Positions 16,016 through 42,500 of a stretch of 64,000 nucleotides of DNA are shown piece after piece. The translations under genes and the position numbers were made by a program. The DNA comes from Balanoglossus misakiensis (taxonomy: Eukaryota; Animalia; Hemichordata), in the NCBI GenBank assembly GCA_040954595.2, contig CM082585.2, positions 4,179,358-4,243,357 of the forward strand, read 5' to 3'. Under the pieces are notes generated by a model, which worked only from the letters and a program-made list of their open reading frames with translations, was not told where the DNA came from and searched no databases. The first letter of the stretch is position 1. Each line of letters opens with the position of its first letter.

Positions 16016-16499
16016 AGAAGTAAATGAATGTTAATCCATATATGGAAAATGCCTCGGCTTTTCGGTGATCGAGAGAACCTTCTGAAAGTTGGTAGCAGAC
16101 AGAAGTGTTGCAGAACTGGCAAACCGCGAATGGTTTGAAAACCACTCGCGTAAACGTGCCAGTGAGAACGCCCCAACATGTGGTTACCCTTTAAACACGC
16201 AACCTGCCAATTTAAGGTGGATTATGATAAGACTATGCAAATGTGAAAAAGTCAGGCTACTGGCAAGACGTACTGTGTGTGCTCCCGGATTTCGAGAAAT
16301 TCACCGGGTTTATGGCGTTTATTGTCATCCAATCTTACATATGATATCCATGAATATTTAGCGAGTACATGTATGTGGAAAATACATTGAAACATCCTGC
16401 AGTGTTGGTAAGGAAACGCAATTTTCTCGAAAGCGTTGTGCCAGAATGGCCGTTTGACCACATTTGTAAAAGTCAATCTATACTGTCAATCATGATTAT

Positions 16500-18735
16500 T
16501 CAAAAAGTTGTCTTCTGTCAGTTTTGATAACTCTCAGCTTTGTGTAGACTTCGGTGAGACTTAGAGATACACTTTCGTTCCATGGAATTGGTCTGAAATC
16601 GTTAAAGGGTCTTGTATACTTTTGTTGTAAATATTCTATCAATCAATGTATGCTTCCTGAAACCATAATTGAGAATAAAAAAAGAAGCATTAAAGTGATG
16701 AACGACACCACAGTACTCACACTTCATGCAAGATCGATTCATGAGGGATTACAAAAAATAATGTTATCAAGTCAGGATTTTAGAATATTGCCCCTCCTGT
16801 CAATATAGTTAAGCAGTGAACATACTAGAATAAACAGTACCCTGGCATGCTGCGATTGCAACTGAGGTCATAGGTTGCACATATGGCGGAATCTTTCAAT
16901 CAATGGCAATGCGTCCATGTACAATGTCTGTAATCTATGATAAATAGCATTTTGGTTACCTGATACACTTATTGGCTGACTGGGAGAGAGAGTGATCAGT
17001 TCAAGCAGATCATATCTCCCAATTTGACGAAGTAAGTGTGTCAGCAAAAATGTTTTGTCTTCACCTATTAGTTTTTTGTCAAGTAATTTATCGAACAAGT
17101 CTGTAGCATGTTGAATTCCTTCAATTTCTCTCTTTGGTATTCTTGTTGATTCCATGTTTCTGCACAGGAATTTCATGGATTTAAGTTCATCTGTAATGGT
17201 AATTACACAAAACACAATTGTTAAGAATTAATGTGTGAGTTTTTGTCCCAGACGCTGTAGAAATCTTAATAACCAACCAACTGGTATATAATACACAGCT
17301 TACGTTTTCTTATATAGGGTTACATTTTTATGTGTAACCCTATATTATATTATACCAGTATATTGATGGTGTAAATCACGCTATTTGATTGGTCGAGACA
17401 CGACACTTGACCGTGATATATTAGCCATATACCACAGTCATATATCATAGTCAAAGAAAATGCCTTTTTAAAATGTTTTATGCAAAGTTTCAATATACTG
17501 GCATAATATAATAGCAATAAAACATCCCCAGCCATGGTATACCATGGCTGGGGGTGTTTTATTGCTTAAATTTAACACCATTTTATAATTCCCTGACAGT
17601 AAATTTTCAATCACCCATTACCTGACCAAACGTGCAAGTAAACATGGCCTTCATATTTACATGTGCCTATAGCTGCTTAAATGCATGCGGGGTATTAAAA
17701 ACCACTCTTAGCAGTTTGCCTAGTACATTGAGACTTTAATTGGTGTATGGTAGGTACAAATGCATGTAACACCACCATCATAACAATAGTTTACACCCTG
17801 TTATAACTAATACAATCCACTCACCTTGTCCTATTTCATCTGCTATTCTGAGAAGTAACCCAATAAAACGATCTTTACTTCTTTTAGTGTAACTTTCAGT
17901 GGCTTGTATCTCCTCTGTCCCTTTAAAATTGAAATTTAGAGAAACATGTAAATGTTTGAAAAGATTAACCTTTTTAATTCAATGTAGGTCATAGTCAGAG
18001 CTGTAGTGTTTAAAGTGTAAAAAAATATTATCACTTTTAAACCCGTGACCAAAATCGTTTGAACTATGCCGTTACTGTTATTCATTATACATTGCAAGCA
18101 TTTGTGCCCTTGGAATTTTTAGGTTCAAAATATTTTTCGTGACGCATTATCACTGGTGTGTACCATATCTGTGAAACTTTCATGTTTAAAAATTGATGCG
18201 ACAAACGACTTTTGAATGAAGTTGAAACACCTTCCAGGCAAGTACCACCTATTCTGTAAAGCCAGCTATTTGCCTAGCTTGCCCAACCGGTTATATCCCT
18301 TAAAGGAACATTTATGCTATCTTGTAATTCCCACTCCAACACTTAGCTCTCCCTTTATATCCAAGTTCAACATTTTATTGGCTACTTTTAAGCTTAAACT
18401 ATACCAGCCACACCCCTGAATTATAAGTTGTCATTTTTAAATACCTGTGCGTGCCTCCTGTATATTTGGTATCTGTATTTCATGAGCCTATTCGGAGAGT
18501 TGATGCTTAAACCATTTTGTGTATTCATATTTATATTTCACATAATGTAACAGTGCTTGATAATGCCCTGTACTGAGCCAACTGATGTAGATATCACATG
18601 TTGGACTATCACCATGTCTTGGACTGTGTTTATGAAACCTTGGTTCTCCACCACTGTTCATACCACCAACCAATACATGTATATTAATGCGCAGACTGTG
18701 GCATAAAGCAACAATTTCTGTTGATCCAGCCCACA
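16500..18735 (-). pseudogene. Decayed paralog of the OTU-DED-NACHT gene (OTU C-half, two DED exons, start of the NACHT exon)
   Basis: Exons ~18735-18445 (WAG..ISWLSTGHY, in-frame TAG at 18488), 17920-17825 (RFIGLLLRIADEIGQ), 17190-16960 (DELKSMKFLC..IGRYDLL) and 16656-~16500 (GSIH then TGA; truncated). Exon order and phases match 29732-35599. Confidence 0.88.
17351..17566. mobile_element. Non-autonomous Crypton-like element (inverted-repeat-bounded module plus terminal palindrome)
   Basis: Inverted repeat tataccagtatattga (17351-17366) / tcaatatactggcata (17490-17505), then the palindrome agcaataaaacatccccagccatggtataccatggctgggggtgttttattgct. It appears absent from the paralogous intron near 32480. 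Confidence 0.6.
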
Positions 18736-19437: not shown

Positions 19438-19465
19438 CATCACCATCATCAGCACCATCATCACC

Positions 19466-19497
<32 letters not shown>

Positions 19498-19570: not shown

Positions 19571-19667
19571 TTGGTGTGAGAACAAGTCTTTAGAAAAATA
19601 TGAATCTAGGAACAGTAAATTCTTGTGTGCGACACGCAGGTAAACTTATGGCGGTGGCGGGATAGAA

Positions 19668-21550: not shown

Positions 21551-21917
21551 GATAGAAGAGCAAATGAGCCCTATATGTCATGGCCAGGGGTGATACCGGG
21601 CAAGGGTCATCCCACTTTTCAATTTTCAATTTATCGTGACTGACTTTACATATATTTCTACAGCTTGGCTGAAATGTATCGAGCTTGATGAAAAATGAGG
21701 ATTTAGAATCGACCAATCATATTTGAGTTCTAATGGACCAATCTCAAGCGAGACAGAGACAGAGATACTGGATACCACAAATACGCCGTCCTGTATACAA
21801 CACGATTTCGAAATGCGTCACGTGTCGCAAGGTTGACGGTAAGCCATACAGCAGTCCGATTTCACCTCCCCTACAATCGTATCGAGTTAACATTGCATCA
21901 CCATTCACCACAACTGG

Positions 21918-23824
21918 GAGGTATTTAAAGGTGTCGAAAATACAAGGGCCAAAGTGCGGGACACGCACAGTGCTATAAATGGCACTCTGCGTGAATTATC
22001 CGACGCGCAGGGAACGGACCTTGCTCTGTTCCCGGCATTTATTTATTTATTTATTTATTTACACATTAAAGGATTTCCCATTTACAATACTCAAACAGGG
22101 GTAAAGACCCCTATAAGGTTGTAATCTACCATGGGGTCCTACTATAAAGTATAAAAATAAAAAGTTTAAAACAGAAAAATACAAATAGTAAAAATGAAAA
22201 TTGTAAAAGTGGTGACTACAAGTAGAAGTTTCTAAAACCGTGAGGTCGTCTATCTGCTTAAATTGGTTCTGATATAAGAGTTCAACTGAGATTTGAAATT
22301 ATTTATGTTGGTACTGCATCTAACAATGTCAGGTAGAGAATTCCAAGCTCTAGCTGCACGCATAGCAAAAGTTCTTTGACCTGTTTCTGTTCGAAATCGA
22401 GGCAATAATAATTTGCGAGTTGAGGCTCCTCGAGTCTGGTAAGCATGGGCGTCATTCAGTTTTACAATTTTTTCGATAAGATAGCTTGGAGCAGTATTGT
22501 TGAAACATTTGTACACCATAATACAAGTAAAGTAAAAAATACGTTGTCTAACGGATAGCACATCGAATCTTTCAAAAAGTACATCAGTTGGGGTATCAAA
22601 ATCAGCATTAAGTATTACTCTTAAGGCACGCTTCTGCATTTTATAAACCTTATCTATATTTTTAGAAGTCGTATTTCCCCACACAATAGAGCAGTAGTCA
22701 ATGACAGATTGAATCAAACCGTAATATAAAACTTTTCTGAGGTGTAAAGGTAAGAATTTACAAAGGCGCCTAAGAAGTCCAACTCTCCGACTCAAAGTAA
22801 GACACAAATTATCAATATGTTTATCCCATGAAATAGAATTGTCTAAGATTAAACCCAGTATCTTTTCAGAGGTGACACATGAAATGCGTTTGTCATTTAT
22901 GGAGATGTCCAATTGTTCACCGGAAATGTCAAAGTATTTTATTTTTTGACGAGATCCGACTAACATAGCTTTTGTTTTGCCCTCATTTATGATCATTCCA
23001 TTACACGGCCTCCACCACTGGAGGCCGTGCAGTGTAACCGGGAACACACAGACCAGTACGCAGATGTAGGAATGGATCGTTTGATTTTTCGGCAGAGCAG
23101 AACAACACGTAACCTAATGTGTACTCGGACAGAGAAAAAAAATGAGCCAGGCCTGTATGGCTTGTGAACGACGTTGCATAAACGTGTGTCATCCTTGGGT
23201 TTACCACTAACGAATGCAACATCAGGACAGTAGAAAATGTCGATTGTGGGTGGTTGATCGCCCGATCATTTATTATTTTCAACGCCCGAATGTCGTCGGT
23301 CGTCGTCAAAAACACGATCGACCTCCTCGAAATACAACATGAAAGTAGAAAATGGCGGTCAAAAACACGATCGAACTCTACGCCCGAATGTCGTCGGACG
23401 TCGTCAAAAACACGAAAGACCTCCTCGAAATGCAACAGGACAATAGAAAATGTCGATCGTGGGCGGTTGATCGCCCGATCATTCGCCCGAATGTCGTCGG
23501 ACGTCGTCAAAAACACGATCGACCTCGAAATGCAACATGAAAGTAGAAAATGTCGGTCAAAAACACGATCGAACTCAACGCCCGAATGTCGTCGGACGTT
23601 GTCAAAAACACGATCGACCTCGAAATGCAACATGAAAGTAGAAAATGTCGGTCAAAAACACGATCGAACTCCTCGAAATTCAAATGTAATCAAAGCCAAG
23701 GGTCCCGCAGAGTCCCACATCTTGTGCAGTGTGCGTGTATTCCCGCAGAGTGCCATTTATTGCACTGTGCGTGTCCCGCACTTTGGCCCCTCACTCTTGT
23801 ATTTTCGACACCCTTAAATACCTG
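21918..23824. mobile_element. Non-autonomous P-like DNA transposon, 7-bp TSD CAACTGG, with internal tandem repeats
   Basis: TIR (c/g)aggtatttaa(a/g)ggtgtcgaaaatacaag plus a subterminal inverted repeat. CAACTGG at 21911-21917 and 23825-23831. Tandem repeats at 23215-23680. Confidence 0.85.
22040..23001 (-). mobile_element. 5'-truncated L2/CR1-group LINE (RT C-terminal part) with (TAAA)n tail
   Basis: ORF 22250-23047: KTKAMLVGS..KILGLILDNSISWDKHID..DYCSIVWG..WNSLP. Tail tttatttatt at 22040-22060. Confidence 0.88.
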
Positions 23825-24086
23825 CAACTGGTGTGGATTTTTCCGGCGCTCTTTACGTGAAATCTACGAGTGGTAAAGAAACCAAGGCATACGTATGTTT
23901 GTTTACCTGCGCTACTACCTGAGCTGTACATTTGGAACTTGTACCAAACTTGACTACAGAGGCTTATATTCTTGCCTTTAGACGTTTTGCTGCGAGACGT
24001 TCACTTCCCAGCAAAATGCTCTCTGATAACGCTTCTACATACCTTTATGCTGCGGAAAAACTTCGTGCTCTTTTCAGCGCCAGAAA

Positions 24087-24548
24087 TTAAGGAGTATCTG
24101 TCAGGACGTCAAGTAACCCAATGTCAAGATCACCAGTTTCACTATTCGCTTTCTTCTTGTTTTTAGGTTTCTTTTTCTTCTTTCTCCTCCCAGTACTGCC
24201 ACTTCCGTTTGTTTGTTTCGTTTGCTCTTCCTCATCTTCGCTGGACTTTGCCACCGGAGATTCTCTGTTTGCCATCTTGGTCTCACCGCCGCCCAAAGGC
24301 ACGTTGCTTCTGTCTCTCCCTTTCGCGAAATCACACTGTGGATAGAGTTTTCTGTGCACATCCATCGCCGATCCCGTCAGGTCTTTATCGGTGATTCTCC
24401 CATCACAACGGAAGCACACAGTAACACCGTCTTTGCCTGTGTAGTACAGACCCGCTTTAGCCAGCGCTATCGGTGTGATGGACCCGTTGAAGGCCCATGA
24501 CACGAATGATGCCAGCCTTCTGGCTTCATAGGTCATGTCAAACTGCAT
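24087..24548 (-). pseudogene. Truncated IAP duplicate: open BIR1 + basic linker ORF (153 aa) with its stop supplied by BEL sequence
   Basis: 24108-25699 is near-identical to ~8925-10530, including upstream non-coding sequence. The ORF ends ..GLLDVLTDTP* in antisense integrase DNA. Confidence 0.88.
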
Positions 24549-26158
24549 GGCAGCAGTTGCTTTGATTCTGTTACCGTTCAATTAGGATTCAAGATAGTCG
24601 AGTTACTTTGTCTGCTAGTTTGGTATAGATAAATCCAAAAGTCTTCAGATCTATTAAGGTGGAGAGACATATATGAAAACATGTGCGATTAGCCCAACAA
24701 GTATTCTAGTCATATCAATATGCCATACCTATAATGTAAATGATCAGAGAGAAGCATCGCTTTGTAAAGAACTCGTTTTTTTAAACTCAAAGACCGACAG
24801 AGAAAGCGTTTTAATCACAAGAAGGTGAACTATGACACTGTCACCGCACACTGACAAATATAACCGTTCAGGTTGTAGTTGGAATAGGTAAAGACTGTAA
24901 TCAACTGTGTTACGCATGTAACTAAAAATACGTGTTGAGCCACATGACAACATTCGACGAAAATTTGTGAACGAAATTCAAAGAAATGACCCGAAATCAA
25001 GCATCGGAATTACATGATATACAGTCTTCGAACCTCGCTCTCACGCAACAGGTTGGCTACAAATGATTCACTCATAGTCATACACTCTGCAGTACTCCAG
25101 AATGAGTACAAAATAGCACGTTCGTGTTTAGTTATTTCCGAGGTTTGCATTGTGTCCTCCCCTCCTCCTGTTAATCAATAGCATTGGACATGTTGGATAA
25201 ACGTGGGTTTGAAGTAGGTTTGGTTAAACGATTATGAGCGACCCCCCCCCCCCCCTTGTGGACGGTGTATAATACTTGACGTACGAAGACGTGTCCCGGG
25301 CGACGAGGTGCGCTGGAGTGTACAGACGATGGACAAAATCGACCGTTTAGAATTCGGACAGTCGGCCCAAGTCATGAAACCAAAGATCTCATAAATAAAA
25401 CAGTTTTCAGGGGTTTTACTAGGCGTAATGGGACCGAACGATCAAACGTGTCACACCGGGGAAAACCCCAACGAGAAAAACCTGGCTTTGCGCGCGCAGT
25501 CGCCTAAATAAGACGTTGTTTATTGCCTTTATCTCGCTGTTCTGCACCATTAAAAATCATTTGAAAATGTGTTTTAACATTTATACTTAAACTGAATTTA
25601 TTATATTTCACTTCTTACGTTAACAGCCAACTGCACAATATATAACACTGTTCACAGACTTTGCGAAATGCGTAGACTATAACGTCGCGGTGTGTATGGC
25701 ACGGTTTATTAAAGATTTTTCATGAAAAAAAATGAAAAGACTAAACAAAAGCAAAACGAAATGAAACAAAAGAAATAACAAAGGAGGGGATGAAAACCAA
25801 CTATCTTGGTCGGTAGGGAAATGCAAAAAAAAAAAAAAAAAAGAACAAAACAACAAAACAACAACAACAACACATAACAGCGTTTTCGGAGGTCCCATGT
25901 CAAACAACTACGAGTACCGGTAGTCAAGATACAGGTGTGTACATGCTACCGTGGGCGTTGGAGAGTCAAAGGTGCTATCGACATTATACAATTCTACGTG
26001 CGTCATGTTGCTGTTTGTTTGCATTGATTTATAGTTTATATAAACCGCCTCGCCTCTGAGACATTTTATCTTCACAAATCAGCCTTTTTTCAGCACAGGA
26101 AATGCACATTCGAGTAGCTGCTGGCAATAGGCCTTGAGGAGTTGGTGTTTTCTGTCCA

Positions 26159-28542
26159 TATTTGGTGTACACACGGTCACGCTATCGGTCAGTTGCTATA
26201 GCAACAGGTGGCAGTTGGAGTTGTGTCAGGATATATATGAAGATCATGCGTTGACAGGTCGCTTTGGAGGGCTTGGGTAAAATCCTAACTGTAAAAAAAA
26301 AGCGCGACGCTTCAATGCAATTCTTCGCGTTTCGTTTCAGTACACAATCTAAGCTTCTTTGCAAATCTCTCAAATTTGGGCCATTCTCACATACGTACTG
26401 CTAAATGCGCCTGAACTTCAGTAACTTCTGGAAAGTCAGAGCCTCGAGTCTGTTTGTTTTCTTTATTTCATAAAATCTCGCCGGAAAGAAATTCATTTCT
26501 GTTGCCATCCGGAACTGACCCTGTTGCTTTCCTTCTGGCGCTTAGTCTCAAATACAAAATTGCAGTGACCATTTTACTGGCCTTCTGGAATATTTCCCTG
26601 GGACCCACCACCTGGTACATTTATCTTTCCAAATTACAGTTACTATACGAAGCTTACAAACGTGAAATGTTTCAGTCGCCGGAAATTTTGCTCGGGTGCA
26701 GTTGTTTGCAGCTTTTTATATCCGACACGATAGTTATGGAACCCCTTTTTGTTCCGAGTCGTTATCTCCAGTGATTGAGTTTGTTTTTCAACAGACAGCA
26801 AATGATCAAGAAATCTTCGTAAATAAATTGTTTTATAATATACCTCATGCTAATACCGTGATTCGCCAGAATCCGTCACGTGATAGGAAAATAGAATCGA
26901 CTATGAACCGCTAGGTAAATAGCAGAAAAAATATAAACCGGTCACGTGACCAACGTGGTCACGTCAATCAGCGTCGCGTCGTCTGACACAATGGCCACCG
27001 CTGAAGATGTCGTCTGCCAGCCTCAAGAGAAAATTGCAAGATTTTCCCAGCTGTTAGCATGAGGTTTATTATAAAACACCTGTAGCCTGGCCTATATTCG
27101 GGCCATAGCAGCCGTTTTTACCCCCTCGTGACTGTGAGTTACCAGAATCATATGCTATTTCCCTCGGCCTGCGGCCTCGGGAAATAGCATATGATTCTGG
27201 TAACTCACAGCCCCTCGGGTGTAATAAACGGCCGCTATTGCCCTCATGGCCAGGCAATAGGTGTTCAATATAAAATGTTATATTGTTACTATACTTCCTG
27301 CATATTACTTCTCTGAAAATGTTCCGAGTAAGAAAATATCTTTGTGTTCGTCAGAGATCTTGCCTTCTCAGCTAAAAATACAAATTGTAGTGCGGAAAAA
27401 CAGTAACGATAGCATGCACCGACAAGTGACTATTTGGCTAATTAATTTCGACCCCGACAGTTCTGTTTGCGTTCTGCAGACCTGAAACAAATAGACCTTC
27501 TCACTGGTCAATTGCACTCCGCACTCTAGGAACAGGTGTGCAACGTAGATGCCCCCAAATCTTTACGTTGACCTCCAATCCCTGGGTGCCTACCCTATAA
27601 TGTTTGTCCTTATCCCAGACGTATCTCTAAATTAGGCTATTCTCGTAAATTGCAATTGCATGACCTGGCATGGCATCCCCTGATACATTTGCATAAATTA
27701 CTGAATTAAATGAACACACACAACAAAATTGGATTCTTAAAAATGAAATCTTTATTTTATCATATAACATTCCATTATCTCAAGCACTGTTGAAATCATG
27801 CAAATAAAATACAAAATCTGTGCTAAATTATATAAGAAGGTATTCATTCTAGTTTTTATGAAAACACACTGTTTTACCATAGATAGTAGAGCGAGAATAC
27901 AGACATTATTTTGATGTAGGCCTACTGTCTAATTTACAAATCTTGGAAAAATGAATTGACATATGCATTGAGTAACAAATAAGAAACCAGTGTAATATGA
28001 TATAAAACAATAAAAAGAGGCTTTTGGGCTTTGTGATATTGCATCATAGAAAGGGTGGGTCGAACAACAACGAACCATCAACTATAGGTACTTATCAAAG
28101 AAAAAAAATATATTTACAAAAGTCACAGATCAGAATACAAGTCTGATGAACAAAGAAAACTTTAAGTACAATATGACTTTGTCATGCTTTTCTACATGAT
28201 AAGACATTTCAAGAGCTTATTTTCAATCTTTCAGACCCCCTCAGAATATCAAATGGTCCAACCCTAATGATATTCTGCAACGGAATGTGCCCAGATTACT
28301 CATATCATTCATTTGTCTTTATCATAAAGCAACAGTTGCTGAAATTTGCTGTGGTTGTTTAACTTTCGTTATGCTTCAAAAAGTTAATGGCTATTCTTAA
28401 TGTACATACTGCTTTAGGTATTAGTGTCAACATACCACGTTTAATACCACATACAGCTTCATAGTGAATTGTTTTGGGGCTTTGGGTCAGGTTGATACCC
28501 TCTTTAATGACCAAAAGGTTTGATTTCGGCAGAGTTGACATC
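26159..28542 (-). repeat. Inverted copy of 12921-14868 (includes the Crypton relic at ~26310-26800) carrying an extra 435-bp insertion
   Basis: Reverse-complement identity on both sides of 26839-27273. Confidence 0.95.
26833..27273. mobile_element. Non-autonomous Crypton-like element inserted at an ATATAA hexamer
   Basis: Absent from the twin segment (~14190). TTATAA on the left, ATATAA on the right and an internal TTATAA. Inverted repeat acctcatgcta/tagcatgaggt. Long hairpin centred on ggcctgcggcc, the same core as the Crypton hairpin at 39243-39253. Confidence 0.75.
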
Positions 28543-28562: not shown

Positions 28563-29745
28563 GGGGTTACACGTGCCTGTTTACTCCGGACCTGACACTG
28601 GATTAAATTTAACCCGGTGTCAGTTTGACGTGTGACCAGACAACTCCGGACTAACACCGCATTAAAATAATCCGGAGTCGGAGGGGTGGTTCAGGTACGG
28701 TGCGCCGTCTTAAAAGAGAGGTTTAGTTACACGTAAATACGCGTACGTCTGACGGCAGGCAGTGGCGTTCGCGTATGCGTAGCGACGCGTGAATTTTGCG
28801 GTTTAGTTGTCCGTTTTGAATAACAACAACAGTTAAAAACAATAGAAAACTCAAATATTTTTCACTTCAATAAATTTTGTGTGTGATGAATATTCTCTAA
28901 GATCACCACCCTTGCAATAAGTTTCTTGACTGCAGTGGAAAGATAGTTTAGTGAAGTTTTTCGATGTCTTTGTAGAGGCGTCCACTGAAAACGTAGTTTG
29001 GGAATACATTTTTGTGTTTATGTTTTGAAAACACCAAATAGCGCCGGTTTTAGCACATATGGCAGATTTTTTTAGATAACATGGATGCTGGCTACATCAC
29101 AATTGCACTGCAGAGATCAATCGCTCAAATTAAAGAGAGAATATCGAGAAATTCCGAAAAAATGTTACACGTAATCATGATTACGCGTAGAAGTGTCGCT
29201 TGCCGTTCCGAACGTCTGTTCTACGCGTACGCGACCTCTGCTTATCACGTGACAATGACGCTACGTGTACTGATCGAACGTATTTACGTGTAACTAAACC
29301 TCTCTAATCAATGACCTCTTCACACGTGTGACCCGATCGCCGAACTAAACACCGCACTAAATCTTGTCTTCCGGCTCGCGGTCATTACCACGATGGACAG
29401 CGTTCAAGCAAGATGATCTTAAAATGAGTGGGATGTCGACATCAGGCGGGGTTAGGCCGTCAAAATTCTCTCCTAGTAAATATCTTCGCCGAAAGCGTCT
29501 CGATTGATTGATTGAACACAAAAAGAGCGCCGAGAACAGCTGTGCGATGTTTACATCGGCCATTTTGGCGATTGTGGTTAAGTTGAGTTAGCCCAGTGAA
29601 TACCGCTGAGGGCGCTTGACCCGAACTAAATTTAGAGCTTGTAAATTGACGTGTAAACGAGCGTTCTCCTAAGTCGCTGATAAGGAATGTTTACAGAGCG
29701 ACAAATCCGATCAACTCAGGTTTAAAATTATTCACGTGTAACCCC
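28563..29745. mobile_element. PIF/Harbinger-like MITE (TIR ggggttacacgtg) abutting the NLR 3' end
   Basis: ggggttacacgtg at 28563-28575 and cacgtgtaacccc at 29733-29745. The flanks do not form a matching TSD. Confidence 0.65.
28715..29305. mobile_element. Nested MITE with a perfect 27-bp TIR (Harbinger-like)
   Basis: agagaggtttagttacacgtaaatacg ... cgtatttacgtgtaactaaacctctct. Confidence 0.8.
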
Positions 29746-32700
29746 AGCATATCATGTCATTTATTCCATAACCAATATTTGATAAAATTACTATCGTATA
29801 TGAATGAATGCTGATAGTCTTAGCCTTCTTAAGGAGAGTGCTGACATATGACCGGATACCATCACACATTGATAGCTCAGTAATGAAGACCTTTAGTAGG
29901 AAATGTTTCATTCTTCTAGACCATTGCTGGTTTGGTATCAAACAGGTCCAATCAGAAGCTTCCCATTTACACAAGGCTAAAGATAAGTATTCTACATATC
30001 TGACTTGCCTTGTGAGAATCAATGCATTTGCCAGGTTGTGAGAAAGCGCATCAGTTTCAAATTCTGTCACACTGCTACATGTATTCAATACCTCCACAAG
30101 ATTCTCAGTGTCATCAGCTGTCTCTATGAGATAATACCCCTGGATGCAAATAGAATTTAACACTGGACTGGAAGATTTCAAAGATAGGAACCATTTTGGC
30201 ATAGCTAATTTTTGAAGGCAAAGCAACATGAACTTTCTTGTTTGTTTACAGTTTTGGATAAACCGACTTAGTGAATAAATATGTGCATCATTCATAGCAA
30301 TGTCTAATACTACAGAAACACACTCTGGACAATTTTCTATAAGTTTATCAAGTGGTAATGGGACCTCTTGGCACTGACACTCTACACCCCACTGAAAATT
30401 TTGCAAATGTTTGTTGGAACTAACACTTTGGAATAAATGAGTGACAGCCTGGGCACATGTTTCTGTGTTCACCAGTTCATCTCCATCTAATGACAACATT
30501 CCATTCAAGGTATTCAAATGCCATCCTCTGTTCAATGCATTCGCTATTTGCTGAATTGATTCTATGGTTCTAAAATACAATGCCACTGATGTTAAACTAA
30601 TACAATGTTCAGTTATTTCCTTAATTATCTGTGTGAAGAAATGTGATATGTCAAAATTCACTAAATATAAATGTTTGATGCATTGAACACTGTCATTGTT
30701 CTGGGCCATGCTATTCAATAGACTAATTACCTGCCCAAACATTTTTTGGCTAAGTGTACATACACCATACTCATGGCTACACTCTATGGCATTGCTTGCC
30801 TGATTGAATATATTATAATAAGACCATTCAATATCAATATTATAACCAATTTCACTATTATCTAGTACCAAATGATTTGGCATAAATGTTGCTAGGTATT
30901 CAATTGTGATATTGGCTTCAAATAAACACTTGCAAATGAATGCAAATTGATTACTGATGTCAAAGTAACCCTGGCTACTATACTTACTCTGCATTGTCTT
31001 CTCAATCAGAACTTTCATAAAAGGGTCTGCTTTCTGTTTTAATATGCCAGCAACAAACAGGCAAACCTGTTTTACTCTTATAATACTTTCAATGCCAGGT
31101 TCTGATCCATTACTACCAACAATCTTGCTGATATCCAATGCAGTGAAATATTCAAGCCAGGTTTTATGGTAGAAAAAGCAACCAGTCTGCAACTTGATTC
31201 TAGAAATTCCAGTATCTCTCACTAGTAAGCCAAGTGACAGAATTGTTTTGCTGACAGACTTTTCATCTATCATCATATACCCTTGTGAACACACATCATA
31301 TGCAACACTAGCTAATGCAGCCACTTCATCATTTACATCATTCGGTATTTGGTAAACACAACACTAAATTTTGGTTTTGTTCAATGTAGCCATAAAGATC
31401 CTCTTTCTTGATTTTGGCATCCCTAGGAAGCAACTGATGGAAAATGATTTCATCTAATCTCTTCTTGTCAGAAACATGTCTCATTTCTAAGAGAAACAAG
31501 AGTTTGAATTGGGGTAGTTTGCCCTGTGCCCAATCATATGCTAGCTTCCTACAGAATGTTGACTTTCCCATTACCGGAGCCCCTTCAATTCTGATTCGAC
31601 TGCAAATTAACTGCGGATCTGTCTCTTTAAAAATGTCATGCTCACTTGTGAGGACACTCCCTTCTTCAAAAAGTTGTCTTCTGTCAGTTTTGATAACTCT
31701 CAGGTTCGTGTAGACTTCAGTGAGGCTTAGAGATACACTTTCGTTCCATGGAATTGGTCTGAAATCATTGAAGTGTCTTGTATACTTTTGTTGTAAATAT
31801 TCTATCAACCAATGTATGCTTCCTGAAACCATAATTGGGAAGAAAAAAGAAGCATGAAAATGATGAATGACATCACAGTACTCACACTTCATGCAAGATC
31901 GATTCATGAGGGATTACAAAAAATAATGTTATCAAGTCAGGATTTTAGAATATTGCCCCTCCTGTCAATATAGTTAAGCAGTGAACATACTAGAATAAAC
32001 AGTACCCTGGCATGCTGCGATTGCAACTGAGGTCATAGGTTGCACATATGGCGGAATCTTTCAATCAATGGCAATGCGTCCATGTAAAATGTCTGTAATC
32101 TATGATAAATAGCATTTTGGTTACCTGATACACTTTCTGGCTGATAGGGAGTGATCAGTTCAATCAGATCATATCTCCCAATTCTACGAAGCAATTCAGT
32201 CAGCAAATCTGTTTTGTCTTCTCTAATGAAATTTTTGACAAGTAACTTTTCAAACAACTCTCTAGCATGTTGAATTCCTTCAATTTCTCCTTTTGGTATC
32301 CCTACTGGCTTCATGTCTATGCATAGGAATTTCATGGATTCAATGTTATCTGTAATGATAATTTACACAACAAATTATTAACACTTAACATGTTTAAGTT
32401 TCGGTCACAGAACTTGTAGTTGTAATAAATCTACCAAGTTTTCTTTTAGAACCTTCTTATATTTTGTGTGTAAGCCCTATCATTTTACACTATCAATTAT
32501 TGTAAATAGCAATTTTATGTCATTTTACAGTAATTATTTTGGTGCCACTCAGTACCGGGCGAAACAAGCATTTGAACATGTCAGGCATACCGTAATTAAA
32601 GTTCGCACACTTATTTATATAGTATTCCATAATGTGTGAAGAAACTTAATACTTGTTAGAAGTATAGAGGTTACATCAATATAGAGGTATCAGTATTACA

Positions 32701-35599
32701 AAAAAATAGCGTCAAGGACACTGTGGTCCCATTTGAGGATTATGCGGAAACAGTGACACACCAGAATAAAAATTACAGGTGACATTGCAAGCAGATATGA
32801 TCTTACGATATAGAAATATGGAATGTAAAAAAATTAACAAGGAACATGCCCAATAAACTATCGTGTCATGGCAGTCTTACAAGTGGTGCTAGAAAAAAAA
32901 TGACCAGAAATTGTCTGTACAAACACATATGACAAACAACTTCTTTCAGTCAGCCCTCAAACAGACAGACAGACAGACACACACTGACCTGCCACTGGTA
33001 AATAAAAATTTAATAGCCGGTGGTCTCTGTAACAGCTGGCCTATTAAAGTAATGTAAACATGTGTAAGTTGGGGGTAACAACTCCTTGTAAACAGTAACT
33101 TTCAAAACAACTGGACAATTGGTTTAGGAGAAGATTTGCTAACCAAAAACAAAGAAACTTACAAAAAAACTCGCTAAATATTGAATATTTCTGATATCAG
33201 AATTGAATAAAAGTTGCACATATACATGTATGTGTTTTGAAATTATATCCTATATTTCAAGGCAATCAGAGAAAAAACAAATTTCAAAGCAATCCAACAA
33301 GCAGTTTCACAGAAAATTTTTGTTCAAAAGTGGCAAAAACACAAATATGCAAATATCACCAAAATTGTACAATATCTTACTTCAATCACTACAAGGAACA
33401 TGCTGCCAAAGTTCAATGCAATATGACAAGCCGTTTCAGAGAAAACAATATTTGACAAAAATTGCAAACATTTCCCCGATAACACATTTATGAAAATATA
33501 ACATTTTTTTACAACATATTACTTAGGTTACCCCTACGAACATGCCTACCAAATTGCAAAGCAATCTGGCATGCGGTTTGAAAGAAAAAAAAAATTGACC
33601 AAAAATGGCAAATATTGCTCAAAATTATAAATATGCAAATTTTGCAACAATTTTAACAAAACTATGGACAAAACTATGGTTACTCAGACAACCATTAGGA
33701 AGCTTCATACTAAATTTCAAAGAAGTAAGCCCATCACTTTCAGAAATGAAGACTTTTTACCAATGACATGGAAGAATAAAAAAAAATGCATAAAACATAG
33801 GAAATCAATAATATTAGCTCGAAACATACAGGACTGTATGAGGTTGACATAAGGTACATGCATACCAATTGTCAATATGACCAGTGGTTGTTGAGTTTTT
33901 GAGTTTTGACCAATTTCACATTTTCCCAGCTAATTTGCATATTTTTGGCAATGACAACTTCGTTTGATCAAACTCCCATCTACAGCCCTGCCTTCATCTA
34001 CACACCAAATATCGAGGTCATACGCGCAGCGGTTTTAAAGTTTTTGATGTGGACGGACATACAGACATACATCCATCCATACATCCATCCATCCATACAT
34101 ACATTCATACATACATACAGACGCAACCGATCCCATAAGGTCTCATGGTACATACCAATGGGACCTAAAAACACACGCAGGAACCTACTGGGAATATGGT
34201 ATTACTAAATCAAAATAGTACCTATTACACATCTCTAGGGATGGTAAGTGAAGTTGACCATTCACATATGGCTATTAAACACTTAACATTGTTTTACTGG
34301 CAGACCTGCCACAGTCATGTGCAATTACGCCAATAATCTGATTGTTGGTTGCATGGGAATATAAAAACATTTTTAACAGTTTACCAATTAGTATATACAT
34401 TATGTAATACTATCATCACAATAATTGTGAAAGTCAACTTACCCTGTCCTAATTCTGTTGCTATTCTGTGAAGTAATCCACGAAAACGGGTTATTGATGC
34501 ATAACTGCCACCCTGTATCAGCATGTCCCCTTTAAGATTGAAATGTGTAGAAATACACACATTTTACAAAAGATTCTTCTATTTTATTCCATAATATGTT
34601 GCAGCAAAAGCATTTGAAGTGGGGCTTTTTCTTTTCACTTTTAATTCGTGACCAAACCTGGTATAGAACACAGTGACTATTATTCTTCAAAATATAATTT
34701 TGAAGCTTTTATGACTTCTTTGTGTGTATTACATCTGTAAAACTGCTTTGTTTACAAATTTACAAGACAAACAACTTTGGATGGTACTATAGGTGGAGTC
34801 CTGAAAGTGAACATTGATTTGGTTTATTAGTTACTAAAAGTTCATGTGTGTGTATTGTGCGCTGCCTTATGTGACGTTCATTGTTTTTAACATGTTCAAT
34901 TTTTTACTTTAAAGTATAATTAATTTTCAGATTGTCATTCTTGGAATTCTTCCTCTCAAAATTTGGCTGGCTACTTTTGAACTTATAACTACACTCTTGA
35001 ATAAGTTGTTTACCTGTGCATGCTTCCTGTACACTCAATGGCTGTATTTCATGGGCCCATTCAGAAAGTTGTTGTGTCAACCAATTTGTATATTCATGGT
35101 TATATTTCACATTGCTTAACACTGCGTCATAATGCCCAGTACTGAGCCAACTGATGTAGATATCACGTGTAGGACTATCAGCATGTCTTGGACTTTGTAA
35201 CAGAAATGTTGGTTCATCCCCACTGTCCGTACCACCAACCAATACACGTATATTAACACACACACAGCGGCTTAAAGCAGCAATTTCTGTTAACCCAGCC
35301 CACACACCATCCATGGCAGCTCTTTGCAGGAAAACTTCTGGATCTCCTTCGATATCCTGCTGGAACTGAGGAAAGTTTTGTCTGATATAGTTCACAGCCT
35401 CTTGTCTGAGACTGTCATGATTAGTCTGATCGCCGTACAAGGATTCTGCAATGGCACGATATAGGCAGTTTCCATCTGGAATAATGTCATATCTGTACAA
35501 AACATTGCTTTGTAAGAATGCATCCCGTACTTCCTGTTCTAGGACTGTTTTGTTACTTTTAATTTTTTGGCACAGGGTTTTGATGGATTCTTTAGGTGT
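29732..35599 (-). pseudogene. NLR with OTUD1-like deubiquitinase - DED - NACHT - divergent LRR-like region; NACHT has an internal deletion and frameshift; start codon unresolved
   Basis: Exons 35599-35014 (IIPDGNCLYRA..DGVWAG..SWLSTGHYDAV), 34529-34443 (FRGLLHRIATELGQ), 32349-32125 (MKFLC..IGRYDLI) and 31822 onward (EGAPVMGKST..LAYDW) are joined by phase-1 GT/AG introns. Near 31357 the frame jumps directly to winged-helix sequence (GLL..FYHKTWLEYFTA), so Walker B/HD1 is missing. Confidence 0.85.
32701..34171 (+). mobile_element. Helentron-associated non-autonomous element (HINE) in an NLR intron
   Basis: Starts aaaatagcgtcaaggacac..ggtccca and ends atcccataaggtc..tgggacctaaaa. Contains (CATC/CATA)n and (CAGA)n microsatellites. 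Same family as 10567-11185. Confidence 0.7.
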
Positions 35600-36688
35600 C
35601 TGCAGTACATAACAAATCTCTGTAAAATACACATAAGAGACATATACCTGTAAACAAATCTATGCGTGGCTATCAGTTACATGTACATGTACTTAAAGCT
35701 GTAAGTTTTTTTAAAGTTGTCCGAAAATATTTTCATAACAGTAGATTTGTAAAGTAAATCTGAGTTATTCTTGGAGGCCTTATCAAACTTTCAAACGTTT
35801 CTGCAGGAAAAAAATATTCTTCTTCTTCAAAATTTACAGACTGACCAAATGTATAAGACAAGTTGAGGCAATGATGGATGAACCTGCAAAAATGTGAATT
35901 ATGGAACTCAACTAAACACATGGCGTCTGACCCAGTCCACCCTATCCACATAAGGGACCGTTAGTTTTTACGGCCGGGGGGGGGGGGGCGGCAGGGGGGG
36001 GGGTCACTTAAATTTTGAAGTCCACAAGGGGGGCGTCATCTGTTTTTTTTAAACGTTTAGGGGAGGGGTCACATACTTTTGCCACCGAACTTTTGCTTTT
36101 GAGTCCACAAAATTGCAGTTTCGCACCCTTTATTTTACAAAATTTTCTAACCCACCCCCTCCATTCTTCGCCACATTGCATTTATTCACTGCTTTGTCTA
36201 GTGTACCAGGGAAGACTTCTTGCCACCCCACCCTGATGCTTACTTTAAGTGGAGTGCCAAAAATAAAATTTGTCCTCCCTAACATTTAGTTAATTTGCTT
36301 TTGAGTTCATTAAATTGCAACTTTGAGCACCGTATTTTACAAAATTTTCTTATGTGGGAGGGGGACACCCCTCCCACGCCCACCACTTTTCTTGGTTTAC
36401 CGATTCCAGCAACTATTGTATTGACTTGTCATTTTAATTTGTTCATAGATTTCTTTATCCCAACAATATACTATTATATACTTCAATAATACTTTAAGAA
36501 ATATATAATTGAGGTGTAAGGAGCCTCATTCCCTTTATTGCATACAGTGTACATAGTATCAGGACGGGGAACTTGTACTTATGATGAACAAATTTAATCA
36601 CACTTCAGCGAATACCATGAGAACAAACGCAATAATAGTGGACGAACTTCAAGAAAAACAGATCTTTGCTGTTCAAGTTTCTGTATAA

Positions 36689-39300
36689 TTAAACCACGAT
36701 CGTGACGTCACACTATTCAAAAGACAAGGCATTCACTGACAGAACCCCTTCTCGCACAAAAGCACAGGTAGTCGAGGTAGTTCTAGAACTACCTCCGGGG
36801 TTTCTAGAACTACCCTGGATTTCAGTCTCACCTGTCGTACCCAAAATACAAATGCACACTAGTACTTATTTGCATAATTTTATTTTACTTGTAATCCATC
36901 GAGCCCAAAGTACATTTCATTTAGAAAGGTTAATTGTTATGCTAATTGAGGACGAACTGGATCTGCAACAGTCTACTTGCTCGATCACTTCACCCGATGC
37001 TTCAGTTACAATTTTGCCTGATGTACAAGCTACTTTTCTTGGTGGTTCTTGGGGGTTTTCATGACCTGTTAGAGAATAAAACAGACATTAACTCAATCAC
37101 CAGAACAAGAACACATTTCTTTAAAGTGACGCCCAGGAATTTATACTAAATCAATACGCTTCACTTCCATATAGCTGTCCACATAGAAACCGACATGCAA
37201 CAAGGTTGGCGATTTCACTATTTAAATAACAAAACTCGATACCTTGCAAAATCCTGCTAACTTTCTGTTGTTGTTGGTCAGATGTCCGTTTGTACTGTCT
37301 CACGGCTTCACTGCGATGCCCGTTTTTTTCACATATGAGTTGCTCGTCAACATCGGCGTCATACAGTCGTGTAGCTGCTGTGGCTCGTAGCGAGTGGTTG
37401 GTACGAAAGCCAGGAAGGCCAGCATCCTTACACAAACGGGCAACAGTTCCATGCAGAGCATTATGGCCGAGTTTTTTTTATGCCATACCAACATGTAGCA
37501 GTAGGTTTACCCAGAGGATACAGATAGTAACTATCTTCAGGTCGATTTGGTGGACTGTTAAGGAAAAATACGCAAAATGGCATTAACTTCTGCTGCATTA
37601 TTTCGCGTAAGCTTACCGTTTGCACGCCAAACCTCAACATTCGCTATAATCCTTTCCCCACATACACAATTTATTTTAGTGCGAAAGTGTTTTGCGTGCA
37701 TATTGTGTGCATGAACAATACTGAACGCTTGAAAACAGAATAAATAAGTGTGCATGCATGTTAAATCGTCAATGACTTACCACAGACTGTTATAGCGTTC
37801 ATATAACCTCACGACACATCTGTCTGGTGTGTCCGCATTCTCGTACGCTCTCGTCACCTTTTGTTTAATTCGCCGACTCTTCAGTCCTCCTTGGTTTGAC
37901 TTGCTAACGTCTTCTCTATACTCAAGATATTTATTTCCCGACGTATCAATTTTCAATTGGATTTGGGAGTTTTTATGACGCAGGTTTCTGTGCTCTATAC
38001 CACCACGTAGGGCAAAGTGCAAACCAAACAGGTAAATTTGAGAATCAAGTAGTGACTGCGGAGTATGGTCTCCCAAGAGTTTCCTGTCCCATAATACGTT
38101 TTCCTCGGCTATGGAAATGATTTGTGCCTGCCTTTTCTGAATTCCAATCCCTTTCTTGGCACGGATTTTCATGGCACAATCAAGACTTCTTTGTACGTCA
38201 GTGAATAAGGCATCATTCAAAAACTGAACATTTCTAACATATTCCGAGACGTATTTTTGTACACACATAACAATTTCATACAGCGTTTTCCCGGGGAAAT
38301 CGGAACCATCTCGCTTTTTGACTTCCTGAATGAATCTAGTCAATGAGAAATTTATTTCGTCGTTTGTCATTTCAGAGAGTGACGGTCCAATTTTGCTTAA
38401 ATGTTCCAAATTCTCGTCTTCAATACGCCTGTTTCGTTCACTACGCCAAGTTTCAAATAATGAAATGGACCAATTTACTTTTTTCTTCGTGTTGTATGGT
38501 ATATTACTTTCAAAGATTTTTTGTAATTCTCCCTCGCATACTAAGTCCCCAACCCGCAAACTATCACTCTTCGCCTGCTTGCTACAACGAGTCTTTGAGG
38601 AAGATTTTCCTACATTCTGGTCGCTAGGAATTTCCTGGACACTACTTCCTTCGCCCGCATAATTTTGCAAAGTGTCAAATTCCACCAGGAAACCGTCGGG
38701 AGAAAACCCTGGCAACTCACCAGAAGAGTCGCTATCAGACTCTGTTTTCCTGAAAGAATTTTGGGTTATGAATATGTTGTCGCTGTCATCAGACATGACG
38801 TGACCTGCACCAAGCAAGACCCAAACTGAAATGGAACTCCAACCACCTCACCATGTGCGTTGTGTGCTATGTAACGCACCTGTAAAGTTTTCATGCAAAT
38901 AGCAGTTGAAAATTAGCATATCATTGCGACACGTAAACATCAATATTTAGAGTAACACCTGTCAAGCGTGGGCAATCTTGTAAGGCCTAGCAGGGCGGTC
39001 TAGAACTACCTGCCCACGACATGATTCATTTAGGAAGAGGGGTGGCCAACCAAATTTTACAATCAGCAATGAAGAATAAGCCACCTTTGATACAATTTTG
39101 TTCGTTCATTTTATTGAATCGTTGTGTAAAACGACGTCTTAATGATACACAAAGCGCCAATGGTGACAATGTCTGTGGGGGATCGTGGTTTAAGCTAGAG
39201 AACCACCTCCCCTTCGGTGGTTCTCGGTTTCCAATCGCCGCGGGCCTGCGGCCCTCGGCGATTCGAAACCAAGAACCACCTCGGGGTCGGTGGTTCTCTA
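36689..39300 (-). mobile_element. Crypton DNA transposon (tyrosine recombinase type)
   Basis: A 13-bp inverted repeat, ttaaaccacgatc (36689-36701) / gatcgtggtttaa (39181-39193), encloses the recombinase gene. It is followed by a ~105-bp hairpin at 39196-39300. Confidence 0.82.
36917..38796 (-). CDS. Crypton tyrosine recombinase (DUF3504/ZMYM-QRICH1-related), spliced; +1 frameshift in an A-run
   Basis: Exons 38796-37781, 37554-37243 and probably ~37065-36917. Catalytic R (FALRGG), K (SKSNQGG), HxxR (NHSLR), H (GHRS) and Y (VRQY) are all present. One extra base in the T8 run at 37472-37479. Confidence 0.85.
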
Positions 39301-39579: not shown

Positions 39580-42500
39580 GTGATTTCGTGTTTACAGGGA
39601 ACATCGGAAATCACGCAAGGTCACGCAAAGACGAGGGTCTTTCTGAACCTGACGAAAACCTCTAGCTCATGGATGGCCTTTTATACCCGTGATGCCATAA
39701 ATTATGCCAATACTCACACATATATGTTTATATGCCCCTCTAAGACTGGTGACGGGTTGACAGCGTGTTTTAGTGCTCCGACAAAAACTTCAAAATTCTG
39801 CCTACAGAATAAGGTAAACTCAAGCTGGTTTCCCTATACTTGTGTCATTACGCTAATTCCTACCATGGGCATCGGATTAGAGGCTTGGAGAGTTGGAATT
39901 GGGTGTTTTTCGCAGCCAAGAAGTTGGAAAGCGGTATCTCTTGACTGGTACACTCCGTACACGACATGGTCTTCACTCAACGAATTTGGCTACAGGTTGT
40001 TTTCCTGCCTATTTGTATCCGGATTAATCATCTTAGCAACGTAATCGTTACTGTTTGGCACCAACGCATTTTGGTTTTGGCTACAGGTGAGGGGAAGTCT
40101 GTCTTTTCAAGAACATTGCGGTTGTTTTTCCGCTTCAAACAACTTGGGACTCGCTTCAACATACAGTGGGTTACACGTGGACGCCTGTTACGTAACTCGC
40201 ACCTGGACATTCTCAAATTTGACTAACAGTGAAAATGGAGAGTCGCCGATTTGGACGCCGTATACTCCAACGATTTTGTTTCAAGCTGGCGACGTAGAAC
40301 TTAATCCAGGTCCACCAAAAACACGGCAAATGAAACTGTCTGGAGGAGGCGATTTGTTAGACGTGGAAGATATCGAAACTGAAGAGGAAACGAGTGAGTC
40401 GTTACTATCAATACTAAAAGTGATTCGTACCGATATGAAAGGACTACGAAAGGAAATGCAATTAGTAAATAAAACTGTCAGAGATATACAGTCAAAACAA
40501 GATGAATTGGTTCAGCAAAATAAGGTGTTAAGCGACAGGATTGGTGAGCATGAGCACGAAGTCGTCGGGCTACGCGCTCAAAGTTGTTGAAATAACGTCA
40601 TTTTCAGAGGAGTAAAAGAACTAGAAGGTGAGACATGGGAAGACTGTGAAAAGGTTGTTCGTGACATTCTGAAATCGAAATTTGACGTAGCAGAAGCAGA
40701 TGACGAGAAGCAAGTTCACATCGAACGAGCGCACAGACTAAATATAAAAACGAAGAAAGGAGTTCCACGACCAATTATTGTCAAGTTTCTATCATTCAAG
40801 ACGAAGTCCGAAATACTGCAAAAGGCGCGTGGCATCTTGAAGAGAATCAGACATGAGCGTGAGTGAAGATCTTCCGCCACAAGTTCGTCGTTCTCGCAAA
40901 AAACTCATTCCGTTTCTTGCCAAGGCGAGAGAAGAGGGAAAACGCGCCCATTTGTATTTTGATAAGCTTGTGATTGACGGTAAGAAGTATCAACTTGACG
41001 AAAAGGGTGATTTGATTGCAACTGGTCGTTAGAGGTGTGGCCAAGCCCCGATTACTAATTATTTTCAGGGAGAAACCCTACTTGAGAAATCTCCTACAGT
41101 CTTGGGTAAAAATATCCACTCTTTTGTATCGTGGAATGCCAGAGGACTGAAAAACCATATCTATGATATAGAGTTAAAACGTTATTTTTCCAAGTTTTCT
41201 GTAGTGTGTATTTCAGAGACATGGGCAAATACAAATCATTAGTTTTCAGGGTGGTTACCAACGCATAAGTGTCATTCGGTCATTAGAAAACGAACCCAGA
41301 AATTTGGTCGTTACTCGGGTGGAGTTTGTGTGTTTATTTTGAAAGAAATTGATAAGTATGTACGAAGAATACTTCAGACTACTGAAGATACTGTTTGCTT
41401 GTTTATTGATAAGAATGCCTTTCATACGCCACGTGATATTATTGTTTGCGGTGTCTACGTTTCACCAGAGGGTGCATCAATTTACCAAGAGGGTGAATCA
41501 AATGGCATTTTACGACTGGAAAACTGTATTATTGACATTAATGTACAATTTGAAAACTGTGACTTTGTGTTATTGGGGGATTTCAATGCGAGAGTCGGAG
41601 ATTTACTTGATTTTGTCATTGAAGATGAAGGAGACACGAATCAATACGGTTATGAACTTGATTATTTTGAAACACACAGAAACTCCCGAGATGAAGTTGT
41701 AAATTCTTTTGGGCGTTCATTAATAGAGATGTGTTATAAACAGCATTTACATTTGGTAAACGGTCGTTTTGCTGGTGACAGAGATGGAAACTTCACATGT
41801 TGTACTAATAACGGGGTCAGTGTAGTTGATTATGTAATTCTCAGTACACCTTTGTTTCAATATGTAAATGACTTTGTAGTTGACACGTTAGACGTCTCTG
41901 ATTTTCCTATTCATTGTTATTTTAATTTTCCTAGTGCTATGATAGCGGAACCAGATACTAGAACTCAAGAAAATATTATGTATTTGCGCTCTTGGAATAA
42001 ATTTCGTTGGAAACCTGGTCCTATTGAAGGTTTTAAATATAAACTACAGGATGAGTTGTTTAATCAAATGCACCAGGTTTTTTACCGCAATATTGAACAG
42101 TTGAATGTAGATGAGGCCACGGGTGTTCTGACCGAGATTTATTCTAGAGCTGGTTCTGACATGGTAGTAAATAGCCGAGACACGTGTCACTCAAATCGAA
42201 ATACTGCTAACAAAGCGTGGTGGGATAAATACCGTAAGTCAAATAGAGATGATGATCTCAGAAATTATGTAGAAGCCCGTAACTATTTCAAGGAGTTGTG
42301 TAAAATCAAAATCAAGAATTATAAAGTGAAACAGTGTAATACTCTTTTGGAAAACACCAATGACCAGTGTAAGTTTTGGAAGACAATCAAAGAAATAAGA
42401 GGGAATAGAAGTGTGTCTTCCCCAAATAACAAAATTGATTCAAAGAAATGGTTTGACTATTTTAAAAATTTATTGAATGTTTCCAACGAATCTATATGTA

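What the first reader, a model, noticed from the sequence alone, without database searches (positions are those of the whole stretch)
29732..35599. NLR with an integrated OTUD1-like deubiquitinase: OTU-DED-NACHT-LRR
Seen: an OTU exon with intact catalytic motifs (PDGNC..GHYD) splices in phase, through two DED exons, into a NACHT/LRR exon. The same exon order and splice phases recur in a diverged paralog at 16500-18735, so the fusion is not chance adjacency. Established: the OTU motifs closely resemble OTUD1 (IIPDGNCLYRA, DGAWAG, SWLSNGHYDAV), a K63-preferring DUB; DEDs recruit FADD/caspase-8; invertebrate NLRs shuffle their N-terminal domains. Inference: a sensor that both strips ubiquitin from a death-signalling complex and recruits caspase on oligomerisation, or one that uses OTU as an integrated decoy. 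I do not recall this architecture being described.
Basis: partly seen in the sequence, partly recalled or inferred. Interest (0 to 1): 0.85.

Follow-up and report, generated by a model that had tools for sequence, protein, structure and literature searches.

The report
Acorn-worm immune sensors carrying deubiquitinase domain
Acorn worms have a family of predicted immune sensors (NLRs) with a deubiquitinase-like domain fused in front of a death domain; this copy keeps the enzyme's catalytic residues but has a deletion in its sensor core, whereas the related public gene models all lack the catalytic cysteine, so the fused domain likely serves as a bait or binding module rather than an enzyme.

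Summary
The OTU, DED and NACHT exons are there and join in frame (three phase 1-1 exons of 606, 87 and 225 nt). There is one DED, split over two exons. The winged-helix and LRR part lies in another frame. The paralog is a tandem duplicate with two stops, so it is not independent support. The architecture is still real: four RefSeq models from Ptychodera flava and Glandiceps talaboti carry OTU+DED+NACHT, two of them full length, and they group with the window gene on NACHT trees. All 7 related acorn-worm OTU domains have Ser at the catalytic Cys, against 0 of 120 OTUD1-like proteins; only the window copy keeps Cys. None shows OTUD1's UIM, which K63 preference needs. Best reading: a DED-signalling NLR subfamily that captured an OTUD1-like exon once and mostly keeps it as a dead bait or binding module; this copy was recently disabled. 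I found no description in the papers searched. Expression and activity are untested.

The parts
35014..35619 (-). OTU exon, 606 nt, phase 1-1; OTUD1-like domain with Cys (35467-35465), His (35134-35132) and Asp (35128-35126); no UIM after it
34443..34529 (-). 87-nt exon, phase 1-1: linker and first helix of the single DED
   Evidence: alignment to relatives
32125..32349 (-). 225-nt exon, phase 1-1: rest of the DED, closest solved structures FADD and caspase-8 DEDs
   Evidence: Pfam DED E 1.5e-14; FADD E 1.2e-5
31353..31822 (-). 5' part of the NACHT exon: pre-NACHT region, Walker A (31583-31557), ending just before the Walker B acidic residues
   Evidence: Pfam NACHT positions 3-81 of 167
31338..31353 (-). 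Deletion junction (31353/31352), about 190 codons missing against P0169, frameshift, stop TGA at 31340-31338
29732..31351 (-). Out-of-frame remainder, 539 open codons: winged helix, helical domain 2, about 11 LRRs
   Evidence: 40% to P0169 over 490 aa; model pLDDT 84.7; NLRC4 and NLRP matches
16499..18735 (-). Tandem-duplicate pseudogene: 3' half of OTU exon (18735-18445, TAG), 96-nt exon (about 17920-17825), DED exon (17190-16960), first 158 nt of NACHT exon (TGA)

Best explanation
The locus is a likely recently disabled copy of an acorn-worm NLR subfamily built as OTU-DED-NACHT-LRR, in which the OTUD1-like domain most likely works as a non-catalytic bait or binding module on a sensor that would signal through its DED. 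Shown: the exon structure, the break in this copy, the architecture in Ptychodera and Glandiceps gene models, and Cys>Ser in all seven related OTU domains. Inferred from trees and exon phase: one capture of a symmetric phase 1-1 OTU exon by a DED-NACHT-LRR gene before these lineages split, then at least two changes at the catalytic codon. Inferred from known NLR and DED biology: in intact members the NACHT-LRR part is self-inhibited, oligomerises when triggered, and clusters the DED, which recruits a FADD or caspase-8-like DED partner. Most inferred step: the trigger or docking cue passes through the OTU fold, which would catch ubiquitinated complexes or factors aimed at host OTUD1-type enzymes without cutting. 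In the window copy the sensor core cannot assemble without Walker B and helical domain 1; its still-complete OTU active site most likely records the ancestral active state.
For: OTU+DED+NACHT in P0001, P0168, P0169 (P. flava) and P0012 (G. talaboti): 4 of 156 NACHT-bearing proteins among 280 stored (names). P0012 and P0169 run on through the LRR-like region. They and the window gene form one clade on the NACHT N-half: 99/90 with 41 rows, 90/87 with 22 rows. Catalytic position: Ser in 7 of 7 acorn-worm OTUs, Cys in 120 of 120 OTUD1-like proteins; His and Asp kept in all 127. The Ser forms still keep 44-51 of 99 OTUD1-invariant columns, the window 55, so the fold looks constrained. A NACHT tree with all Ser-bearing NLRs (plus P0028) together and the window outside is rejected (p-AU 0.011). 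Repeated independent Cys>Ser with loss of activity is known in OTUD4 homologues (PMC4654579, abstract and section 5). Recent disabling: 539 codons stay open after the break (chance about 6e-19), and the first 51 NACHT codons of the two window copies differ by 5 synonymous and 2 replacement changes (Fisher p 0.004; 0.009 counting the stop).
Against: No transcript or read data; splicing is inferred from sequence and from gene models whose RNA support I could not see. Two P. flava models (P0128, P0139) end after the OTU, and P0028, nested in the clade, has no OTU. Four Ser copies also lost 6-7 residues where OTUD1 has AAQDGAW, and two lost the Gly before the Asn-Ser; Pfam no longer scores P0168 and P0169 above cut-off. 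That fits decay as well as re-use and argues against ubiquitin binding in those copies. On the OTU tree itself a single Ser clade is not rejected (p-AU 0.27), and the AU groups were chosen after I saw the first tree. OTU+DED exons of the two window copies give dN/dS 0.6-0.9, not clearly below 1 (p 0.11). Only 2 of the 7 models are full length. No ligand or partner is known.
Confidence: 0.5

Rival explanations
1. Active deubiquitinase-NLR. In this species the gene is intact on another haplotype or paralog, or the break is an assembly error, and the OTU trims ubiquitin from the complex that the DED recruits, tipping it towards death signalling.
For: The window OTU keeps Asp, Cys, His, Asp and the AAxDGxWAG stretch and is the most OTUD1-like of the 8 (55 of 99 invariant columns). 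The break looks recent. OTUD1 acts on RIPK1 and the FADD/caspase-8 complex (PMC13437307, passages).
Against: No intact Cys-bearing copy was seen: both window copies are broken and 7 of 7 public relatives have Ser. No UIM; the isolated OTUD1 OTU domain has much lower activity and loses specificity. That review describes OTUD1 as blocking, not promoting, complex II.
Confidence: 0.2
2. The OTU is a decaying passenger: it was captured, gave no lasting benefit and is being lost piecemeal in a fast birth-and-death gene family; the working unit is DED-NACHT-LRR.
For: Deletions in the OTU of P0128, P0139, P0168, P0169; no OTU in P0028; many truncated models; most relatives are DED-NACHT without OTU.
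Against: The domain stays open and recognisable in two genera, with His, Asp and 44-51 of 99 invariant columns kept in all seven. The catalytic position is always Ser, never another residue, although these seven may be only two events.
Confidence: 0.17
3. The truncation is itself used: the stop lies in the last exon, so the transcript may escape decay and give a roughly 470-residue (plus N-terminus) OTU-DED-half-NACHT protein, a DED-targeted deubiquitinase or dominant-negative regulator of sister NLRs.
For: The open frame of 1403 nt ends in the final predicted exon. P0023 is a similar OTU-DED model that ends just after Walker A begins.
Against: The 539 downstream codons have not decayed, so there has been little time for selection on the short form. 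Half a nucleotide-binding domain is unlikely to fold. No start exon was found.
Confidence: 0.08
4. The OTU exon belongs to a separate upstream gene and the fusions are gene-model artefacts.
For: P0128 and P0139 are OTU-only models. The OTU exon frame runs 36 codons past the donor to a stop at 34904.
Against: In-frame fusion in five models from two genera plus the window. Phase 1 at every junction. OTU-bearing NACHTs form one clade.
Confidence: 0.05

Closest known systems
DED-NACHT(-LRR) NLRs of invertebrate deuterostomes (amphioxus, sea urchin, acorn worm)
   Same: Single N-terminal DED, NACHT, LRR; tandem duplication. DED listed as an N-terminal domain in PMC13012124 and PMC3879445 (passages).
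   Different: An OTU domain in front of the DED. PMC3879445 states that in sponge, urchin and amphioxus the N-terminal domains are limited to death folds. This copy has a deleted NACHT core.
OTUD1 (vertebrate OTU deubiquitinase, PDB 4BOP)
   Same: About 41-42% identity over the OTU domain; Cys loop and His loop nearly identical; by far the best solved-structure match.
   Different: No C-terminal UIM seen; fused to an NLR; Cys>Ser in all public acorn-worm relatives. No stand-alone invertebrate OTUD1 appeared among the 120 listed of 272 hits.
Cys>Ser pseudo-DUBs of the OTUD4 subfamily (Drosophila Otu, CG3251)
   Same: Same substitution, arising repeatedly; inactive in vitro (PMC4654579, abstract and section 5).
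   Different: Different OTU subfamily and not part of an NLR.
Plant NLRs with integrated decoy domains, and the NLRP1/CARD8 tripwires (recalled, not from a call)
   Same: A host-like domain, often stripped of activity, fused to an immune sensor.
   Different: Here the domain is an OTU, in an animal NACHT protein with a DED; no ligand or effector is known, so the likeness is by layout only.
NLRC4/NAIP (PDB 4KXF)
   Same: Best structural match of the winged helix-HD2-LRR part (E 5.5e-11).
   Different: 14% identity; CARD or BIR instead of OTU-DED.

Membership tests
NLR (NACHT-LRR receptor) | Complete NACHT with Walker A, Walker B, sensor 1, HD1, winged helix | tested here: not met
   Window copy: Walker A present, about 190 codons from Walker B on deleted, frameshift. 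Met in relatives P0012, P0169, P0001.
NLR (NACHT-LRR receptor) | C-terminal leucine-rich repeats | tested here: met
   About 11 beta-alpha repeats in the model, NLRC4 and NLRP fold matches; no Pfam LRR hit; out of frame in this copy.
NLR (NACHT-LRR receptor) | N-terminal death-fold effector domain | tested here: met
   One DED, Pfam E 1.5e-14, FADD-like.
NLR (NACHT-LRR receptor) | Ligand-induced oligomerisation and signalling | not testable with these tools
   Needs experiments.
OTU deubiquitinase | OTU domain with Cys, His and Asp catalytic residues | tested here: met
   Window: Asp, Cys, His, Asp in register with OTUD1. Not met in 7 of 7 acorn-worm relatives (Ser).
OTU deubiquitinase | Ubiquitin-chain cleavage | not testable with these tools
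   Needs a di-ubiquitin assay.
OTUD1 (K63-preferring) | OTU domain closest to OTUD1 | tested here: met
   No tree with other OTU subfamilies was built, so orthology rests on scores.
OTUD1 (K63-preferring) | C-terminal UIM needed for K63 preference | tested here: not met
   Similarity ends where the OTUD1 UIM starts (judged by eye); role of the UIM from PMC13437307.
Integrated-decoy NLR | Fused domain resembles a host target and is often catalytically dead | tested here: inconclusive
   Dead in relatives, complete in the window copy.
Integrated-decoy NLR | A pathogen factor binds or modifies the fused domain and triggers the receptor | not testable with these tools
   No candidate factor known.

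The most novel reading that the evidence does not exclude
Acorn worms evolved plant-style integrated-decoy NLRs: an OTUD1-like deubiquitinase exon was grafted onto a DED-NLR and then converted more than once, by the same Cys>Ser change, into a substrate trap that senses ubiquitin chains or pathogen factors aimed at host deubiquitinases. The window lineage preserves the catalytically complete intermediate, so active and dead versions of one module can be compared directly.
Probability: 0.25. Interest if true: 0.8.

Novelty: new variant of a known kind. Interest (0 to 1): 0.52.

Why it matters
Animal NLRs mostly carry death-fold N-termini, and enzyme or pseudo-enzyme fusions are better known from plants and fungi. 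A deuterostome NLR clade with an OTUD1-derived domain links ubiquitin editing or sensing directly to DED-driven death signalling. It also gives a natural series (Cys form here, Ser forms with and without loop deletions, OTU-less form) for asking how an enzyme becomes a sensor module. These are also the closest invertebrate relatives of OTUD1 that my searches listed. The weight is limited because this copy is broken, nothing is shown at RNA or protein level, and shuffled N-terminal domains are common in invertebrate NLRs.

Tried and rejected
No whole genome is held for this window, so intact paralogs elsewhere could not be sought. The sequencing-run search (RNA, 29700-35700) listed none; this is no evidence on expression, and no reads could be laid on the junctions or the break. 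Single-sequence folding of the C-terminal frame failed (pLDDT 36.6); the 40-row alignment worked. ESM Atlas: the OTU exon gave only generic OTU clusters; the C-terminal part gave LRR-type clusters at scores under 0.8, a lead only. No upstream exon was found by tblastn; the 5' side holds a DUF3504 element and LINE pieces. Rescue of the missing NACHT piece from elsewhere in the window was rejected. 'Two DEDs' was rejected. 'Paralog as independent evidence' was rejected: it shares 94-98% identical tracts with this copy and belongs to the same duplication. A BIR-NACHT (NAIP-like) fusion between the IAP copy at 25.7-18.9 kb and the paralog was considered and dropped, since both are broken. Chance Ser>Cys reversion in a dead gene is possible (one base from AGC) but less likely, as the rest of the active site is also the best kept. 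Earlier scan notes: none on this architecture by words or sequence. No complex prediction was run.

Full report
Observation. On the minus strand the exons 35619-35014, 34529-34443, 32349-32125 and 31822 onwards have AG/GT ends and join in one frame. The three internal exons are 606, 87 and 225 nt, all phase 1-1, the pattern expected for exon shuffling. Pfam finds OTU (E 1e-15), DED (1.5e-14) and the first half of NACHT (profile 3-81 of 167). The two DED exons make one DED, closest to FADD and caspase-8 among solved structures. The OTU is closest to human OTUD1 (4BOP, E 2e-33; OTUD3 3e-9), with Asp, Cys, His and Asp in register.

The break. The joined frame stops at 31340-31338. The closest full-length relative, P0169, aligns with residues 339-500 up to 31353 and resumes with 691-1154 from 31351 in another frame. 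So about 190 codons are missing, from the Walker B acidic residues through sensor 1 and helical domain 1. The missing piece is nowhere else in the window. The remainder is open for 539 codons (chance about 6e-19). Folded with a 40-row alignment it gives a confident winged helix, helical domain and about 11 LRRs (pLDDT 84.7), matching NLRC4 and NLRPs. The break is therefore recent, or lies on one haplotype, or is an assembly error; no reads were available to decide. No start exon was found.

The paralog. The copy at 18735-16499 has lost the Cys half of the OTU exon, has two stops and ends early in NACHT. It is one of two tandem units, each an NLR followed by an IAP gene, with a mosaic of about 81-84% and 94-99% identical tracts. 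It shows that the exon order predates the duplication and nothing more. Between the copies dN/dS is 0.6-0.9 for OTU and DED exons (pooled p 0.11) and 0.09 for the first 51 NACHT codons (p 0.004-0.009); the numbers are small.

Relatives. The OTU exon's best hit among longer proteins was P0001, a Ptychodera flava model with OTU, DED and NACHT (XP_070532842.1). P0001 found P0012 of Glandiceps talaboti (XP_077991469.1). The representative search (4924 hits, best 150 listed) and a profile search (272 hits among 7995 candidates, best 120 listed) added P0023, P0128, P0139, P0168 and P0169, all P. flava. Of 280 stored proteins 156 carry NACHT and 4 carry both OTU and NACHT; P0023 has OTU and DED and ends at Walker A; P0128 and P0139 end after the OTU. 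Only P0012 and P0169 are full length. The 152 unlisted hits could hide more distant fusions. The window is therefore probably from an acorn worm; two earlier scan notes on this genome say the same.

Origin. On trees of the NACHT N-half (157 and 156 columns) the window gene and all OTU-bearing NACHTs form one clade (99/90 with 41 rows; 90/87, not starred, with 22 rows). It has two branches: P0012 + P0001, and window + P0168 + P0169 + P0028, the last without OTU. Rows were the top 40 blastp hits, then a 21-protein subset; P0023 was in neither tree. This points to one capture before the Ptychodera and Glandiceps lineages split.

Catalytic state. Among 127 stored proteins with this OTU, the catalytic position is Ser in all 7 acorn-worm proteins and Cys in all 120 OTUD1-like proteins; His and Asp are kept throughout. 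The window alone has Cys. Holding the Ser-bearing NLRs together without the window is rejected on NACHT (p-AU 0.011, group chosen after the first tree) but not on the OTU tree (p-AU 0.27). On the NACHT topology two changes are needed: two losses, or one loss and a reversion. I favour two losses because the window also keeps the most OTUD1-invariant columns (55 of 99 against 44-51) and the AAxDGxWAG stretch that four Ser copies have partly deleted. Cys320Ser abolishes OTUD1 activity, and K63 preference needs the C-terminal UIM (PMC13437307, passages); similarity to OTUD1 ends where that UIM begins. Repeated Cys>Ser with loss of activity is documented for OTUD4 homologues (PMC4654579, abstract and section 5).

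How it likely works. From established NLR and DED biology (my knowledge), an intact member is self-inhibited by its LRR and NACHT, oligomerises when triggered and clusters DEDs that recruit FADD or caspase-8-like partners. The OTU of the intact public members cannot be a standard cysteine protease. Its kept fold suggests a bait or binding role (0.5), against an active enzyme in this lineage (0.2), a decaying passenger (0.17), a functional truncated product (0.08) or a model artefact (0.05). The loop deletions in four copies count against ubiquitin binding in those copies. The window copy itself is most likely a young pseudogene.

Literature. Six full-text searches for the architecture or the group listed no paper whose title or abstract start describes it; two searches listed only general reviews, which I did not open, and one search listed none. 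The term OTU does not occur in the main texts of PMC8662601, PMC3879445, PMC13012124 or PMC11508797 (term searches), nor in the text supplements held for three of them (1, 6 and 1 files). Supplementary figures held as pictures, bioRxiv supplements and subscription papers were not seen and may show this architecture. The fusion is visible in RefSeq models, all named uncharacterized.

Verdict. Observation partly confirmed; architecture real at family level; this copy broken; enzyme model weakened, decoy or binding model favoured but untested. New variant of a known kind, interest 0.52.

Noticed in passing
window 5996-10530 (-) and 18854-25699 (-): An IAP gene with three BIR matches in one frame plus a further BIR piece, UBA and RING lies downstream of the paralog; a second, interrupted copy lies downstream of the main NLR. 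The NLR + IAP pair was duplicated as a unit. A ubiquitin ligase gene beside a deubiquitinase-bearing NLR is suggestive, but synteny in other species could not be checked.
   Followed up: partly
window 12921-14868 and 26159-28542: A 99% identical stretch of about 2 kb is present in inverted orientation between the two duplicated units.
   Followed up: no
window 52891-60228: BEL/Pao LTR retrotransposon with 613-nt terminal repeats 99.8% identical and a 1583-codon open frame: a young insertion.
   Followed up: no
window 36900-38850 (-): DUF3504 + QRICH1-domain coding element, of the kind seen in tyrosine-recombinase transposons (recalled), about 1.3 kb upstream of the OTU exon; it may have displaced the gene's first exon.
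   Followed up: no
window 2543-4870 (-) and 62199-62756 (-): Exons of two sialidase-like (BNR repeat) genes.
   Followed up: no
P0001 570-680, P0012 590-700: OTU-bearing members carry a long acidic insertion between the nucleotide-binding domain and helical domain 1 that OTU-less relatives such as P0014 and P0016 lack; it falls inside the part deleted in the window.
   Followed up: no
listing: All named OTUD1-like hits among the 120 listed were vertebrate apart from these acorn-worm NLR-linked domains; the source gene of the captured exon was not found.
   Followed up: partly
window 41243-44525 (+) and 22250-23113 (-): Fragments of non-LTR retrotransposons (endonuclease and reverse-transcriptase-like frames); one interrupts the second IAP copy.
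   Followed up: no
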